64,000 nucleotides of DNA, from positions 164,982,001 to 165,046,000 of the forward strand of contig OX597814.1 of assembly GCA_951406725.2 (NCBI GenBank). Direction: 5' to 3'. This document shows, piece by piece, positions 19,154 through 61,209 of this stretch. This DNA is from Octopus vulgaris (taxonomy: Eukaryota). The notes below the pieces were generated by a model. It did no database searches. It saw nothing but the letters and a program-made list of their open reading frames with translations, and was not told where the DNA came from. Position numbers and translations under genes: made by a program. Within the stretch, counting starts at the first letter, position 1. Every line of letters starts with the position of its first letter.

Positions 19154-19259
19154 TGAATACATTTGTACACCCGAGTGTGTATGTATGTATGTATGTATGT
19201 ATGTATGTATGTATGTATGTATGTATGTATGTATGTATGTATGTTTGTTTGTTTGTTTG

Positions 19260-19348
19260 TATTTCAAGATTTCTTGCCAATAGAGAAAGAGTCGGTTTCT
19301 AACCTAGATCCAAGGTTCCTTCATGGGAATTTCAACATCAACAACAGG
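19260..19348 (-). repeat. (TACA)n-tailed repeat module
   Basis: Homologous to 34250-34350 and 36762-36865 (GAAATTCC.ATGAAGGA.CCTTGGATCT..GT.AGAAAC). Confidence 0.7.
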
Positions 19349-34219: not shown

Positions 34220-35088
34220 CACATTTACATAAATACATGCTAAAATACCATGTTGATGTTGCTGAAATTCCAATGAAGGAGCCTTGGATCTTGGTTAGAA
34301 ACCGACTTTTTCTGTATTGGAAAAAAATCTTAAAATAAAACTGAATAATAACATATATACACACACACATACATACATACATACATACATACATACATAC
34401 ATACATACATACATACATACATACATACATACATACCAACATACATACATACATGCATACATACATTACATGCATACATACATTCAGTCATAAGGCAGAC
34501 AGACATAAGCATACGCACAATTTCCCTCTAAAAGCAAAATGTTATAAACATTATATATGTATATAGTTATGTGCATGTATGTATATATGTATATATTTAT
34601 ATTTGCATATATGTGTTTAAAAGGACTAATGTTATGACAATTTTCCGTGGATAACAGTGTGTTAGTACATGAATTAAGTTATCTGTGCATAAATATGTAT
34701 GTTTGTACATGTGTATTGTGTGTGTATGTGTGTATGTGCGTGTATGTGTACGTAAATCAATATACGTGTGTGCCTGCTTGTACTTGTATGTGCGTGATTT
34801 CAGTCCGTTAAGTAGCACTAAAAAAAAAAAAAAAGAAATGTTATGTACCCCAAGTATGCGTTATGTTTTAACATCCGAAAGATTAACTAGAATATAGAAA
34901 TACCCTTTCATGATGTATACAATGTACATGCTGTCTTTGGTGTATCAGTGTTTATACATACGTGAAGTTTTGCCTCTTTCTCATCTCACATAGTTATACA
35001 TCCATGCAAACATACATAGATGCATACACACACATGCACACATACAAAAACACACACACACATATATATATATACATATATTCATATG

Positions 35089-35260: not shown

Positions 35261-36203
35261 TACATATATACATATATACATATGTGCATACAGAGATTTG
35301 AAACATACATACATGGCGTCGATGTCAATCAAGACGGCATAGGTGACTATTCTTTCGTGTAATGAATATTATTCCATAAACTTTGCTTTGAATACCAGCT
35401 TAGTGAACAAAAATCTCATTATATCCTGTGTGTAAATGCACAGAAAAGCCTGTTTAGTGAATTCTGTAGCAGTAATGAAGCGGGAAAATTAAACTAGTAA
35501 ATATTATGTGGATTTCAACACATAAGATGATAGTAAAACAGTGTACTGAGACCAGCCATAGCATGTCTTGGAGTCAGTAAAAGAAATTCCTGAGGGATTT
35601 TAATTTAATTAAGATGTGTACTAATTATACAAAATATTTAGGGAAGATTTGTTGGTTAGTTACATGAAACGGATGAACAGCCAGCTAATTTTATTTCAAT
35701 GGGAAGCAATCTACGTTAGCTCAACAAAAAAGGGGCCTTCAAAAATGAAAAAAGGGAAATAATGATATCTGCTGTATAGTAGGTTCTACCAACGAGTAAA
35801 TTGCTAAAAACGTGAACGGCAGTGAAAACAACTATAACATGTTGATATTACTGCCACGAGTTTGAAGGATATATAATCATGTAACATATAGATATTACTG
35901 CCAAAACCAGAAAGAGAAAGCTGATTTTCAAGGCTAAAATCCAAGCCATCACTGGAACTGTAGAAATCTGTAAAACATTCCAGAAGTTTATCCTTTAAGT
36001 ACATATGAGTATGTCTAACCATGCAACTATATACATGAGAATACATACATAAAACAAATCTACACACATACATGCATACATACATTCATACATACATACA
36101 TACATACATACATACATACATACATACATACATACATACATACATACATACATTATTTTATATTATTTACAATTGACGGATATTTGTCTTCATCTTGTTT
36201 GTT

Positions 36204-36249
36204 AACTCACCGTTTCGGCTGAAATACCCTCCAACCTTCATCAGGTGTC
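36204..36249 (-). ncRNA. Hammerhead copy (cleavage triplet mutated)
   Basis: Minus: gacac-CTGATGA-AGGTTG..CAGCC-GAAAC-GGT-gagtt. Confidence 0.6.
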
Positions 36250-36359
36250 TTGGGGGAAATTTCGAACCTGAGTTCTCATTCCTAAGGTATTTTTCGATGT
36301 TGTTATTGTTGTTATTGTTGTTATCATCATCATCATTATTATTATTATTATCATTCAGG

Positions 36360-36430
36360 TCACTGTCTGGAATCGAACTAGGAATCTTGGTGTTAGTAGC
36401 CTGCGCTCTTAACCACTACGCCATATTCCC
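36360..36430 (-). promoter_or_regulatory. tRNA-derived Pol III head (A and B boxes)
   Basis: Minus: GGGAATATGGCGTAGTGGTTAAGAGCGC...AGTTCGATTCC; A-box at 36413-36423, B-box at 36369-36378. Confidence 0.75.
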
Positions 36431-36552
36431 GTGGGCTTATGTCTAATGTCAGCTCCAACCCGATTAGATAATACAGTTCTGTATTTAAGAGATGAGGAAT
36501 TATGTACATTATTTACAATTGACGGATATTTGTCCTCATCTTGTTTGTTGTT

Positions 36553-36598
36553 AACACAAAATTTCGTCTGATATACCCTCCAGCCTTCATCAGGTGTC
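36553..36598 (-). ncRNA. Hammerhead copy (stem III mutated)
   Basis: Minus: gacac-CTGATGA-AGGCTG..CAGAC-GAAAT-TTT-gtgtt. Confidence 0.6.
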
Positions 36599-36634
36599 TT
36601 GGGGAAATTTCGAACCTAGGTTCTCACTCCCAAA

Positions 36635-36680
36635 GACACCTGATGAAGGCTGGAATGTATATCAGCCGAAACGTTGTGTT
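36635..36680 (+). ncRNA. Minimal type-I hammerhead ribozyme (intact)
   Basis: gacac-CTGATGA-A-GGCTG gaatgtatat CAGCC-GAAAC-GTT-gtgtt; stem III reduced to the palindrome AACGTT. Confidence 0.8.
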
Positions 36681-36957
36681 AACAACAAACATAATGAGGA
36701 CAAATATCCGCCAATTGTAAATAATGTATATAATTCCTCACGTCATAAATATAGAACTGTACCCTGTTGATGTTGTTGAAATTCCAATGAAGGAGCCTTG
36801 GATCTAAGTCAGAAACTGGTTCTTTCACTATGGCAAGGAAATTTGAAATAAAACTGAATAATGACATACAAGCATACATACATACATACATACATACATA
36901 CATACATACATACATACATACATACATACATACATACATACTGCTTTTATTATGAAG

Positions 36958-37555: not shown

Positions 37556-37587
37556 CGGGTGTGTATGTTTATATATATACATATATA

Positions 37588-37742
37588 AGGAGTGGCTGTG
37601 CGGTAAGTAGCTTGCTTACCGACCACATGGTACCGGGTTCAGTCCCACCACGTGGCACCTTGAGCAAGTGTCTTCTATAGCCTGGGGCCGACCAAAGCCT
37701 TGCGAGAGAATTTGTTAGAGGGAAACTGAAAGAAGCCTCTCG
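37588..37742 (+). mobile_element. SINE family B 5' part
   Basis: GGAGTGGCTGTGCGGTAAG head, GGTTCAGTCC, GTGGCACCTTGAGCAAGTGTCTT core. Confidence 0.82.
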
Positions 37743-37849
37743 TATATTTATATATGACTGTGTGTGTGTGTGTGCGTGTGTGTGTGTGTGTTTGTGTGTG
37801 CGTGCGTTGCGTGTGTATGTGTGGTGTGTGTTTATACATGCATACATAC

Positions 37850-42662: not shown

Positions 42663-43550
42663 ATGGCTAAAAGTTATTTTTATTTGGACCTTAGTGGTTC
42701 CGAATAGTCCTCTTCGGAGGAGGAAATGGTTATCGCAATCGAAAAGATGGATGAATTACTGAAGAAGAAGAGCTTCGCTGAAGCGGCAGAAATAAAGAAG
42801 AAAGATGTGAACCTGGCAAATATCAAAAGAGACGAAAAAATGGCATGCAAAGTGGGTGGTGACGTTGGGCTGTCACTACACCAGAAGAAAATAAATTAAT
42901 AGAAAAACCGTGATATGCAAAGTCTACTCAGTACAGAAAAGAAAAATCGAACGCATGGAAGAAGGAATTTTAGAAAAGGCATTATGTTCAGTCTGGCCAG
43001 ACATTACGAACCAGACCAGAGGGAATAAGTACAGAAGTATCATAGTCCACTACAGAACAGAAGAAAAAGTAAGAGGAAACGCGGTAAAAACAATAAAGAC
43101 GGATAAGGTGGTTCTTCTACCAACTTATATGGGAAGAAGGACATCAAAGATAAAGGTGGAGGGAATTCCACCGGAAATTGATGTGGCTTGGATCGTGGTA
43201 GCTGTTCTCGTGGGAGGTGGAGAAGAAGTAGCCGTCCTCCAAGCCACAAAAATGGACGGATCGGTTTGGAGAGGCAAAGTCTTGGAACTAATCGTACAGG
43301 CAGAAGATGAGACACTAGAAAATTTTGCAGAGACGGTATGGATAGGAGGCCTGGGGTGGAAAGTGTGGGTAGAGGGCAGGACTCCACGCTGTTTTAAATG
43401 TGGCCAAAAAGGCCAGATTAGTGTACACTGCCCTCAGCAGAAGCAGACAGAAGAAAGGATACTGGAAAAGAAGCAAGAAGTGGAAAAAGAGAAAAAAGGA
43501 AGAAAGAGAAGACGAATGGAAGATTGCTAAGGGGAAAAAGGAAGAAAAAA
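42663..43550 (+). mobile_element. Non-LTR retrotransposon ORF1 (gag-like, zinc knuckle), degraded
   Basis: KSFAEAA motif, IKVEGIPPEI, VWVEGRTPRCFKCGQKGQISVHCP (CX2CX4HX4C with H>Q), EWKIAKGKK. Stop and frameshift upstream; truncated next to a SINE. Confidence 0.75.
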
Positions 43551-48175: not shown

Positions 48176-50570
48176 AAGATAATAAATAATAAAAAATAAA
48201 CAATGATAATAATAGAATAAATGTTCTTATCTTAACTTATACTAATTATCAAATAAATATATTTAAAAAATACGTGTATTAACTATAAATAATCAAAAAG
48301 CATTTAACTATATTTCTTAAAATAAAAATATAACTTATCTTGTCGAATGATTTTAGTTAACTAACAATTTAAACGTAAAACGTCGAACTTAGCGTTTATA
48401 AGAAATAAGAAATATATCGCGCGAAAATATGGCGTAAATAGAATTTATCGAAGAAGTAGATAGAAATATGTATTTAAGCTATTAAAATGACAAATGTATT
48501 TTAGGTGTAAGAATAAAGGAAAAATTAATTTTAATATACTATTAACTGGAAAAATTGTAAAGTCTAAATAATTGAAATACTAAATACGTGAAATACATAA
48601 TATAATAAACATGGATTAAGCTAAAATTCTATAATTTAATCTATTTTCATTAATTGATTTATTTATTTTATAAATATCTAATATTCAACTTATTCTAATT
48701 ATGTAATATAGACTATATAATCTCATGCTAATTTATATACATTTTACTACTACAAATTATAACTACTACAATTAGTAACATAAAACAGGGTTTATATATA
48801 TACACAAAATAGCTAAACTTATTATATAAGTAATTTTATTGATGTCTACGTGTAATTTTTCGTTCGTCGAGGGATTTTAAATAATTTTTATTATTAGTTA
48901 ATAATATCTCCTTAAATTCGTTAGTACATAATAAACAAAAATTACTGCCTATTCGCCTTACAAACTATCCCCCAATTTAAATTGTACTTAATATTTTTAG
49001 ATTTTAGTTCCCATATATATTTACTAAGGCCAGTAGAATTAATTAAATTTCTATTTTTAAAAGAATTCATGTGTTGAGCCACCCGTAATTTAATTTTATT
49101 AGTAGTCGACCCTATGTAAATTGCATTTAAATTATAACCATTGCTATTATTATCATCAATCAAAGTCACTATGCATTTATATACTACATCATCGAAATTA
49201 AATTTATTATTAAATTTACAATTACTTTTATCTACTCTTATTATTATTCGAATAATTATTTGATTTGTTTTTGTAAAATTTATTCAGCTTAAATTTATTA
49301 AAGGAAAAAATAATATTACCTGCATTATTAGTAGTAGAATAACCAACTCCCAAAAATTATTACTAGAAAAAATGCTATTATATCTTTATTATGTCTAATG
49401 AATAGTTCAATTATAGTTAAAATCTCTTTAATAATGTTTTTTTTAACTTGAGCTCCATGACGAATAATTAGCCAAATTTTGTTATTATTAATATTATTAT
49501 ATCTATTTTTTATATTATTAAATTTATTATTATCATTAAATAAATGAAATTTAATCTTATTTTTTAGTCTATTATTGTATTTATGTTTTGTATTATCATA
49601 ATACATATTATTAATACTGTAATTACCTAAATAAAACGTATCATAATTCTTAATGTTAGGCTTATTATTATAAAAAATATAAGAATCATTTATATTATAA
49701 TCTTTTATATTATAATCATATTTAGAAGTATTAAATAATTTAACATTATTATTATATCCCGCCTCTCGCAGGGCTTCATTATAATAAGGTGCGTGTTTTT
49801 TGGAAAATCTCAAAATTAGAAGAAAGCAACAATATACTTATACCTATATCATCTATCAATAATTTCTTAATAGAAGGTGAGTGATTACTATTAGCATTAA
49901 TATATCCAAGGTTTTCATTAATTTTATGGAATGGTTGGGATTTACCTGTTATTAAATTAAAATTAGCATGTAAATAATTAGCATTATAGTTCTCATTATA
50001 TATAGTAATACTCAATCCATATATTTAAAAAAAAACTATATAGTTTCTTTTATATAATTCTAGTGTTCAATTGGTGCAATTCTTAGTTATTAATAAAAGG
50101 TCATGCTTATACAGACCACCCTCCAATTTTAATTTTTCTAATTGAAGTTCCGATAATAATTAAATAACTATTAAATCAGTTGCCTGTGCAGAATCGGGTG
50201 CCCCCATAGGTATATCAAAATAGTCCCTAGTATCCTTCCTAGCACACAATTTATTATTATATCTAATCAACGATTTCCTAGCCGTTTTAACAACATCAAC
50301 TTCATCATAAGTCATTCCTACCATAAAGTAGGGCCTTATTGAGTACTATCTCATTAATAGAAGAATAATAATTATCTATATTTATTTGAATGAATTTATA
50401 TCTATTTTCATCTTTACTATTAAACCATTTTAAAGTATCATTAGTACTAGTCCAAAGTTTAAGTTAATTATTTTCATTTAAGCTATTAATATATTTATCT
50501 AAAATGATCTTACTTAATTTACCTAGATCTGATTTTCATGGACAAATAAGTCTAACTTTTCACGCGATAA

Positions 50571-56319: not shown

Positions 56320-56475
56320 AGAATATGGAACATTATTTACATTATTTGTTATTATGGTTATTTGTCCGCATCTTGTTTGTTGTTAACACAATGCTTCGGC
56401 TGACTTGTGTTAACAACTAACAAGATGAGGACAAATATCCCTCAATTGTAAATAATGTACGTAATTCCTCATCTG
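56320..56475. repeat. Collapsed hairpin of the 36162-36865 family (HHR cores deleted)
   Basis: TATTTGTCCGCATCTTGTTTGTTGTTAACACAA / TTGTGTTAACAACTAACAAGATGAGGACAAATA arms with a 13-nt loop. Confidence 0.75.
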
Positions 56476-56828: not shown

Positions 56829-56876
56829 GTCTCTGATGAAGGGATAGCCCTCATATCCCTGAAACAGCTGTTAGAC
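56829..56876 (+). ncRNA. Minimal type-I hammerhead ribozyme (intact)
   Basis: gtct-CTGATGA-AGGGATA gccctca TATCCCT-GAAAC-AGCT-GTT-agac; palindromic stem III AACAGCTGTT. Confidence 0.85.
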
Positions 56877-60321: not shown

Positions 60322-60937
60322 TAATAATAATAATAATTGTGTACAGTGCTCAGGTGCACTACAACTCATCTAAAGTGTATATATAATCAGGTGTAGTTTC
60401 GGCGGATTTCGGAAAGCATGAGGGCCTTAAAGGATGCAGTGTCATGGCAGTCAACAACTGACGCAGGCAGTTTATTCCATGCTTCAGCAACTCTGAGCGT
60501 GAAAAAATGTTTCCGAAAGTCATGGGAGCGGTGTTGTTTTCTGACTTTGTAGGCATGTCCACGTGTGTTAGACACATAGAGATCAAAAAGGTGTTCAGTG
60601 TTGTTGTTGGTGAGGTGGTTGATAACTTTGTGGGTGTTTACCAAGTCCGTCGCCAGATGCCGGAGCTTCAGTGAATCCATGCCCAGGGAAACAAGGCGCT
60701 CAGAATATGGTAGGTGTCTGACGGAGGGTATGCGTTTGGTTGCACGTCTCGGGACAGGTTCCAGGAGGTCAATGTTCTGAGCAAGATAGGGGTTCCAAAC
60801 TGATGATGCGAATTCCAAGTGTGGTCGTACCATAGCTGTATACAGTTTTAAATAGATGGCTGGAGAGCGGCTAACAAAAGTCTTGCTGAGTGATGCCAAG
60901 ACACCCTCGGCCTTCTTGACAATTTTAGAGATATGCT
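60322..60937 (-). mobile_element. CR1-clade LINE 3' end (5'-truncated)
   Basis: LKLYTAMVRPHLEFASSVWNPY..RRATK..LPYSERL..TRGH..RKHFFTLRVAEAWNKLP; short 3' UTR with stem-loop and (ATT)n tail. Confidence 0.92.
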
Positions 60938-61209
60938 TTGGAATATACAATGATTTTTTTTATTATTATCAGTTTCGAGATATATAGCTATTGTCTAATT
61001 TCATCTGCCTTTGATTTATTAATTGTGACAATTGTTTAAGTCCTTAATATTTCAGGCTTTTTCCTGAAGTGTCCATGAAATGACTACGAAGTGTTACAGT
61101 ACGTCTAAAGTAAAGTTAACATTTAGTTGATTCTAACATGCTAGGGATAAGTAGTGTTGCACCTTATAGTAGTAACTGCATCGTTTCAATGACTCGCATT
61201 AATCAGTCC

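What the first reader, a model, noticed from the sequence alone, without database searches (positions are those of the whole stretch)
36204..36598. tRNA-headed, hammerhead-delimited ~349-nt non-coding unit: candidate Pol III retrozyme / circular RNA element
Seen: two same-strand HHR copies with predicted cut sites at 36557 and 36208 (349 nt apart) enclose a tRNA-like A/B-box head. The unit has no TTTT on the transcribed strand, so no Pol III terminator, and no recognisable protein ORF. The partial-tandem plus inverted layout is PLE-like. Known: animal non-LTR retrozymes are short HHR-bearing tandem repeats that yield circular RNAs and are thought to be PLE-mobilised. Inference: a SINE-ribozyme chimera that transcribes, self-processes and uses PLE reverse transcriptase. 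These two HHR copies carry mutations; the inverted copy at 36635 is intact.
Basis: partly seen in the sequence, partly recalled or inferred. Interest (0 to 1): 0.85.

Follow-up and report, generated by a model that had tools for sequence, protein, structure and literature searches.

The report
Penelope retrotransposon with built-in tRNA promoter

Summary
The sequence features are real: two minus-strand minimal hammerheads 349 nt apart (both mutated), a tRNA-like A/B-box head and (TAA)n between them, and an inverted third copy with an intact core. The retrozyme/circle reading is not supported. The head, hammerhead and tail are the 3' UTR/pseudo-LTR of an autonomous Penelope-like element (PLE; RT plus C-terminal GIY-YIG): the head follows the ORF stop in 28 of 28 ORF-selected loci, and the hammerhead, tail and 'spacer' encode the PLE ORF N-terminus (tblastn E=2e-8). 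The 349-nt unit is a one-off internal deletion: its junction occurs once in 2.8 Gb, 2 of 90 hammerhead loci have a same-strand partner, and 35 of 35 RNA reads over the spacer carry another allele. What is unusual is the family: copy number drops 4.8-fold across 74 nt at the head's 5' end (5,148 versus 1,067 exact 20-mers), and the ORF sense strand has no shared TTTT run (0.33/kb in decayed copies versus about 4/kb in other PLEs). Likely a PLE that captured a tRNA-derived Pol III promoter; untested.

The parts
36150..36435 (-). Copy U/A: PLE 3' UTR/pseudo-LTR, starting at the head and ending at the shorter of the two usual 3' ends; 91% identical to the family majority
36357..36430 (-). tRNA-derived head; A box 36423-36413, B box 36378-36369; stems degenerate; best of 20 tested genomic tRNAs is Arg(TCG), 49/75
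   Evidence: not called by ARAGORN or Rfam
36301..36356 (-). (TAA/TGA/CAA)n microsatellite between head and hammerhead region, native to the family
36203..36250 (-). Minimal type I hammerhead A; predicted cut 36209^36208; triplet and stem I mutated. Lies inside the PLE reading frame whose first ATG is at 36279
36472..36630 (-). Copy B: 5'-truncated pseudo-LTR (hammerhead plus full tail), coding for the PLE ORF N-terminus
36553..36598 (-). Minimal type I hammerhead B; predicted cut 36558^36557; stem III and stem II mutated
36439..36471 (-). 'Spacer': native continuation of the PLE ORF (the conserved RYG-motif region), present in 8 other genomic places at <=3 mismatches and in L092
36436..36439 (-). 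Unique deletion/template-switch junction joining ORF codon ~66 to the 3' UTR just upstream of the head (about 2.4 kb of ORF missing)
36632..36761 (+). Copy C: inverted 5'-truncated pseudo-LTR with intact hammerhead core (36635-36680, predicted cut 36675^36676) and full tail

Best explanation
The locus is a single, decayed insertion of an abundant Penelope-like retrotransposon (inverted pseudo-LTR, then pseudo-LTR plus the first ~66 ORF codons, then a deletion junction, then a second pseudo-LTR), and the family's pseudo-LTR natively carries a tRNA-derived A/B-box module that likely served as an internal Pol III promoter. Shown: element anatomy (ORF stop, ~35 nt, head, (TAA)n, ATG, hammerhead, tail, ORF); two clusters of 3' ends; frequent head-to-head inverted partners; no target-site duplications; a sharp pile-up of 5' ends at the head. 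Inferred: a tRNA retrocopy with a (TAA)n tail landed in an ancestral PLE's 3' UTR; Pol III transcripts starting a few bases upstream of the head run through hammerhead and ORF start, are bound by the PLE protein, and are copied from two internal start sites into AT-rich DNA, as shown in vitro for the anole Poseidon element; the cDNA often folds back at the GCCC-AC-GGGC palindrome at the head's 5' end. Most of the tens of thousands of short copies would thus be SINE-like products of the PLE's own terminal repeat. The 349-nt spacing here arose once, by template switch or deletion, and did not spread.
For: Head follows the ORF stop in 28 of 28 distinct ORF-selected loci (30 fetched, 2 duplicates; top 10 by score plus 20 that I picked from 150 for long open frames). 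L112 is a near full-length copy, pLTR-ORF-pLTR, colinear with the 847-aa P0003; L101 ORF has an RVT_1 match, E=2.7e-6, below Pfam's cut-off, and 2,744 homologues. Junction pattern: 1 hit at <=3 mismatches, the window itself; tail-to-head within 60 nt: 2 hits genome-wide, one the window. 90 of 848 hammerhead-selected loci: 48 single, 41 with an inverted hammerhead, 2 with a same-strand one. 3' ends of 226 tail copies cluster at majority positions ~278-298 and ~318-326, matching the 30-40 bp optional tail and two RT start sites of PLEs (PMC11167929, PMC8557442). TSD >=8 nt in 1 of 36 solo copies. 62 of 76 head-reaching alignments end within -8..+30 of the head start, 7 run on into the ORF. Exact 20-mer counts: tail 12,344; head 5,148; ORF end 74 nt upstream 1,067; ORF 351 nt further up 572. 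Fold-back junction 314 hits (some loci counted on both strands), native junction 267.
Against: No direct evidence of Pol III transcription: raw cDNA reads show the family on both strands about equally and no pile of starts or ends. The step at the head could equally be an RT stall or fold-back at the palindrome on a long Pol II transcript. 5' ends are spread over ~40 nt rather than at one base. A and B boxes are barely better kept than the rest of the head in 136 copies (A 5.8%, B 4.0%, rest 6.0% mismatches). No intact ORF among the 150 scored matches (longest open frame 569 aa), so the family looks dead. 20-mer counts depend on each word's decay (match rates in held copies 0.32-0.64).
Confidence: 0.72

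Rival explanations
1. Same anatomy, but the tRNA-like module is a passenger: the PLE is transcribed by Pol II as other PLEs are thought to be, and copies pile up at the head because the RT stalls or folds back at the GCCC-AC-GGGC palindrome and GC-rich head.
For: Fold-back junctions centre exactly on the palindrome; 5' ends spread over ~40 nt; synonymous-codon shuffle gives only P=0.083 for the lack of TTTT; four LINE-like ORFs in the same genome are also TTTT-poor, 0-1.4 per kb; characterised PLE promoters are pLTR-internal with introns (PMC8557442).
Against: Solo copies without fold-back also start at the head (10 of 36 solo copies); both boxes are canonical; 0 TTTT in 2,125 nt of majority sequence and 10 runs at 10 different columns in 30.5 kb of copies versus 59 expected from base shuffles.
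Confidence: 0.35
2. One reading: a Pol III retrozyme family whose 349-nt hammerhead-to-hammerhead monomer is cut out, circularised and spread by PLE RT.
For: The layout at this locus is what such an element would look like at birth; non-LTR retrozymes are PLE derivatives (bioRxiv 10.64898/2026.07.22.740005); Pol III SINE-like repeats with hammerheads exist in schistosomes (PMC6765202).
Against: Junction single-copy; 0 of 29 best-scoring other loci and 2 of 90 hammerhead loci show a same-strand partner; no step of 5' ends at the cut site among 117 unselected tail copies; both ribozymes mutated; spacer depth 1-12 versus 500-2,600 on either side, and 35 of 35 reads at 36458 carry another allele.
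Confidence: 0.04
3. An independent tRNA SINE mobilised by a LINE, which happens to sit next to PLE fragments.
For: Head plus (TAA)n resembles a simple SINE; LINE-like 3' ends with (TAA)n tails occur in held loci.
Against: Head sits at one fixed place in the PLE in 28 of 28 loci; copies end in the PLE tail, not in (TAA)n; TSDs absent in 35 of 36 solo copies.
Confidence: 0.03

Closest known systems
Penelope/Poseidon-type PLEs with minimal hammerheads in pseudo-LTRs (PMC4209133; anole PAc, PMC11167929; PMC8557442)
   Same: RT plus C-terminal GIY-YIG ORF, minimal type I hammerhead with palindromic stem III overlapping the ORF start, two 3' end clusters ~35-40 nt apart, 5' truncation, partial tandem and inverted copies.
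   Different: The pseudo-LTR holds a tRNA-derived A/B-box module and (TAA)n; most copies stop at that module; sense strand lacks TTTT. No tRNA-like pLTR module was found in the passages and searches I saw.
Animal non-LTR retrozymes (PMC7229834; bioRxiv 10.64898/2026.07.22.740005)
   Same: ~350-nt spacing of type I hammerheads, PLE ancestry, non-coding derivative.
   Different: Defined as tandem repeats with complete hammerheads in consecutive units and circular RNA; here one copy, dead cores, no array. Retrozymes are said to lack promoters (PMC7761336).
Schistosome SM-alpha/Sj-alpha SINE-like hammerhead repeats (as reviewed in PMC6765202)
   Same: Pol III-type promoter followed by a hammerhead.
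   Different: Those are tandem non-coding repeats; here the module is part of the autonomous element and copies are dispersed.
TRIMp3: Cassandra, Helenus, Ajax (PMC10886601)
   Same: Small-RNA-derived Pol III promoter inside a terminal repeat, proposed to arise by SINE insertion into the repeat.
   Different: Those are non-autonomous LTR elements; that paper argues autonomous partners must use Pol II. Here the carrier is a protein-coding PLE.
Octopus tRNA SINEs OK, OR1, OR2 (Ohshima and Okada 1994; title seen in reference lists only, family names OK/OR1 recalled)
   Same: Abundant tRNA-derived repeats in what appears to be the same animal group.
   Different: Could not be compared; the short form of this family may already be catalogued as one of them or in repeat libraries.

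Membership tests
Penelope-like element (C-terminal EN, Penelope/Poseidon type) | Single ORF with RT and C-terminal GIY-YIG endonuclease | tested here: met
   RVT_1 E=2.7e-6, under the cut-off; colinear with 847-aa P0003 and others carrying PF00078/PF28514/PF26215; YSIPCSCGRxYKGET motif with two cysteines seen directly. Pfam GIY-YIG itself did not match.
Penelope-like element (C-terminal EN, Penelope/Poseidon type) | Pseudo-LTRs with a minimal type I hammerhead | tested here: met
   L112 pLTR-ORF-pLTR; motif GACAC-CTGATGA-stem II-GAAACGTT^GTGTT, 848 exact copies.
Penelope-like element (C-terminal EN, Penelope/Poseidon type) | 5' truncation, inverted/tandem copies, optional 30-40 bp tail | tested here: met
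Penelope-like element (C-terminal EN, Penelope/Poseidon type) | Placement in the Penelope/Poseidon clade by RT phylogeny | not tested
   No named reference sequences; assignment rests on the absence of a CxxC zinc finger in the RT-EN linker (seen; criterion from PMC8557442).
Non-LTR retrozyme | Tandem repeats with complete hammerheads in at least two consecutive units | tested here: not met
   Both cores mutated; junction single-copy; 2 of 90 loci with same-strand partner.
Non-LTR retrozyme | Accumulation of a circular monomer RNA | tested here: inconclusive
   No support in three cDNA runs, but about 6% of each run was read, the libraries are not suited to small circles and may be from another individual or species.
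Non-LTR retrozyme | Self-cleavage | not testable with these tools
   Needs in vitro assay; no step of copy ends at the cut site.
SINE (SINEBase definition, PMC3531059) | Head derived from a Pol III RNA with internal promoter | tested here: met
   A and B boxes; 49/75 to tRNA-Arg(TCG), z about 7. Isotype uncertain: only 20 tRNAs of 6 isotypes tested.
SINE (SINEBase definition, PMC3531059) | Transcription by Pol III | not testable with these tools
   Indirect only: 5'-end step, lack of TTTT.
SINE (SINEBase definition, PMC3531059) | Dependence on a partner LINE, simple-repeat 3' tail | tested here: not met
   3' end is the PLE tail; TSD in 1 of 36 solo copies.

The most novel reading that the evidence does not exclude
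This is an autonomous, protein-coding retrotransposon transcribed end to end by RNA polymerase III: the tRNA-type promoter in the upstream pseudo-LTR drives a ~2.9-kb uncapped RNA whose coding strand has been purged of TTTT terminators, with the hammerhead at the ORF start helping to process or translate it, and the same promoter turns the element's own terminal repeat into a PLE-mobilised SINE.
Probability: 0.22. Interest if true: 0.82.

Novelty: new variant of a known kind. Interest (0 to 1): 0.5.

Why it matters
If the promoter works, it shows a route by which a SINE-like family is born inside a Penelope element and is spread by PLE rather than LINE machinery, and it would challenge the assumption that protein-coding retrotransposons must use Pol II. 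It gives a testable handle on two open PLE questions: how they are transcribed and translated, and what the hammerhead does. The locus itself shows how a retrozyme-sized unit can arise from a PLE by one internal deletion, and that it can fail to spread. For annotation, some 15,000-30,000 copies would be misfiled as a tRNA SINE or as retrozymes.

Tried and rejected
Rfam on the window (gathering: 0 matches; E-value mode: only microsatellite and hairpin miRNA models) and on a young head (0); ARAGORN (0 in window; majority head called only at 70% threshold with a wrong fold). The repeat finder on the whole window was swamped by microsatellites. Single-strand folding of hammerheads and head gave no canonical fold. 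The GIY-YIG family search found a different PLE family (781-aa ORFs), none of 30 loci with this hammerhead. (0 hits) lacked a positive control and was replaced. A step of 5' ends at the hammerhead cut site was tested and not found; a planned tail-selected sample could not be fetched. Selective conservation of boxes or ribozyme core: none (core 8.1% versus flank 6.1% mismatches in 110 copies). No RNA holder listed by the run index; this is no evidence either way. Eight metagenome relatives at 34-42% identity: no A/B-box pattern or credible tRNA, but contigs are short, so spread of the module outside this genome is untested. Earlier scan findings: nothing returned. Ohshima and Okada 1994 not held; SINEBase supplements not readable.

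Full report
Setting. The window is G000:C1:164,982,001-165,046,000 in a 2.8-Gb, 227-contig genome, rich in microsatellites.

Observation. The minus strand holds two minimal type I hammerhead motifs with cores at 36593 and 36244 and predicted first bases after cleavage at 36557 and 36208, 349 nt apart; between them lie a tail, a 33-nt stretch, a tRNA-like head with A box (36423-36413) and B box (36378-36369), and a (TAA)-type microsatellite; an inverted copy lies at 36632-36761. Both same-strand ribozymes carry disabling changes by inspection (copy B stem III and stem II; copy A cleavage triplet and stem I); the inverted one keeps its core. There is no T>=4 run between the cut sites. The head is not called by ARAGORN or Rfam but aligns to 20 of 34 tRNAs found in the genome, best to Arg(TCG) at 49 of 75 positions, with 0 of 300 dinucleotide shuffles reaching that score.

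It is a large dispersed family. A DNA search gave 5,658 candidates, 40 scored, 30 fetched. The 29 other loci share head, (TAA)n, hammerhead and tail; none has a same-strand partner upstream, many have an inverted one. The 46-nt majority hammerhead occurs 848 times exactly. In 40 arbitrarily placed 10-kb stretches, five loci carried hammerhead or tail sequence and two carried ORF sequence. Exact 20-mer counts divided by match rates in held copies (0.42 and 0.32, biased to young copies) suggest about 29,000 tails and 16,000 heads.

The unit is part of an autonomous Penelope-like element. Upstream of the head in several hammerhead-selected loci lies the end of an ORF with a PLE-type endonuclease region. 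Searching with that peptide gave 5,013 candidates, 150 scored, none with a full open frame (longest 569 aa). In all 30 loci fetched on the basis of the ORF (28 distinct) the head follows about 35 nt after the stop codon. L112 is near full length: truncated pseudo-LTR, ORF, pseudo-LTR, colinear with the 847-aa protein P0003. The reading frame opens at an ATG upstream of the hammerhead (36279 in copy A) and runs through hammerhead and tail. P0003 residues 18-69 match window copy B at E=2e-8, including the supposed spacer. Eight other genomic places match the spacer at <=3 mismatches and continue in ORF sequence. A similar overlap of hammerhead and ORF start, and two internal RT start sites that give an optional tail, are reported for the anole Poseidon element (PMC11167929, parts 1-2 of 4 read). 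Here 3' ends of 226 tail-bearing copies fall in two clusters about 35-40 nt apart, and 1 of 36 solo copies has a TSD of 8 nt or more.

The 349-nt unit is a one-off. In the window, ORF codon ~66 is joined to the 3' UTR just before the head, through a short microhomology (two readings fit: CAT plus a 2-nt loss, or ATTAGA plus a 23-nt loss). The junction has one hit at <=3 mismatches, itself; a gapped tail-to-head pattern has two hits genome-wide, one being the window and the other a different junction. Of 90 hammerhead-selected loci (the first 90 listed of 848, all on C1-C2), 48 have one hammerhead, 41 an inverted partner and 2 a same-strand partner at 195 and 353 nt, neither with the head between. 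Among 117 tail copies not chosen as central hits, 5' ends show no step at the cut site. In three raw cDNA runs (about 6% of each read, 85% likeness, same species label as the index's best RNA-guess holders, possibly not the window's species) 9,256, 7,452 and 6,857 reads lay on 36160-36630, equally in both orientations, with no pile of starts or ends; depth over 36448-36463 is 1-12 against 500-2,600 on either side, and 35 of 35 reads at 36458 carry another letter; no joint at the cut-to-cut register appears in RNA among the 15 joints shown (75 not shown; one 355-nt back-joint at the tail ends has 4 reads). This gives no support for a circle but cannot exclude one.

What is unusual. First, copies stop at the head: 62 of 76 head-reaching alignments end within -8..+30 of the head start, 7 end further inside it and 7 run on into the ORF. 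Genome-wide exact 20-mers fall 2.4-fold over 203 nt from tail to head, 4.8-fold over the next 74 nt, and 1.9-fold over the following 351 nt (12,344; 5,148; 1,067; 572). Many ends are fold-backs centred on the GCCC-AC-GGGC palindrome at the head start (314 hits, some loci double-counted, against 267 native junctions). Second, the coding strand lacks Pol III terminators: 0 T>=4 runs in 2,125 nt of majority sequence, and 10 runs at 10 different columns in 30,539 nt of 27 decayed copies (0.33/kb; base shuffles give 59), against 7 in 1,791 nt for the genome's other PLE family at the same T content and 41 in 9,235 nt for eight distant relatives. Against this: a synonymous-codon shuffle gives P=0.083 only, three of the 11 control ORFs also have 0-1 runs, four LINE-like ORFs (so labelled by my reading) have 0-1.4/kb, and the boxes are hardly better kept than the rest of the head. 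A TATAA lies about 25 nt upstream of the head, overlapping the stop codon; in AT-rich DNA this is weak.

Mechanism. Most likely a tRNA retrocopy with a (TAA)n tail entered the 3' UTR of an ancestral PLE and became part of its pseudo-LTR (inferred). Pol III transcripts from it would contain the hammerhead and ORF start, the region the anole protein needs on its template, and be copied into short SINE-like insertions (inferred). I put the anatomy and the one-off nature of the 349-nt unit at about 0.9, Pol III starts as the cause of the step at about 0.55-0.6, and Pol III transcription of the whole element at about 0.22.

Comparison and literature seen. PMC4209133 (parts 1-2 of 4): minimal hammerheads in pLTRs, dispersed single motifs, opposite-strand pairs. 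PMC8557442 (passages): partial tandems, inverted copies, tail, clade criteria. bioRxiv 10.64898/2026.07.22.740005 (part 1 of 5 and passages; 0 occurrences of tRNA or octopus): retrozymes derive from PLEs. PMC7229834, PMC7761336, PMC6765202, PMC10886601, PMC3531059, PMC4758252 (passages). PMC13282606 (part 1 of 3 and passages; 0 occurrences of hammerhead or ribozyme). Ten searches (listings only for papers not named above) showed no report of a PLE with a tRNA-like pLTR module or Pol III transcription. Subscription papers, Repbase/Dfam/SINEBase entries, Ohshima and Okada 1994 and supplements (bioRxiv closed; SINEBase none; repeat libraries of PMC13282606 not opened) were not seen, and the short form may be catalogued there as a SINE.

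Verdict. Observation partly confirmed; retrozyme/circle reading not supported; the locus is a dead PLE derivative. The family is a new variant of a known kind, worth 0.5 for a testable Pol III hypothesis.

Noticed in passing
G000:C8:78922581, C29:14036238, C29:14416838, C29:16077268 (L254, L258, L259), C10:6739490: A second short hammerhead-to-hammerhead derivative of the same PLE without the tRNA head (ORF start joined to the (TAA)n); 4 exact plus 1 near match, three compared are 97-98% identical with mutated cores; likely duplicated with their surroundings.
   Followed up: partly
window 56330-56474: Inverted pair of 5'-truncated tails of the same PLE family.
   Followed up: partly
window 56833-56864 (+): Another minimal hammerhead-like motif (CTGATGA, 7-bp stem II, GAAA, palindromic CAGCTG), unrelated in sequence; may mark a different PLE family.
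   Followed up: no
L037, L042 and others: A second, younger PLE family with many 781-aa open frames, RVT_1 and GIY-YIG matches and a cysteine motif in the linker; no hammerhead of this family near its 3' ends in 30 loci.
   Followed up: partly
L080, L088, L173, L184, L214, L221 and others: The (TAA)n inside the pseudo-LTR is often split from the head by ~500-nt insertions of other repeats ending in (TAA)n, suggesting it is a target for them.
   Followed up: no
window 36762-36870; also 19257-19348 and 34246-34355: A different dispersed repeat ending in (CATA)n abuts copy C.
   Followed up: no
window 37585-37745: Another tRNA-like SINE-type repeat with A/B-box-like motifs, seen directly.
   Followed up: no
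window 42895-43530, 49328-49837, 60387-60959: Open frames that look like fragments of LINE ORF1, a PLE-type linker and a LINE RT C-terminus by my reading; not searched.
   Followed up: no
P0003 N-terminus: The hammerhead-encoded peptide (TPDxG...PKRCVN) is conserved in a 55%-identical PLE protein from another source, so the ribozyme/ORF overlap is shared across this lineage.
   Followed up: partly
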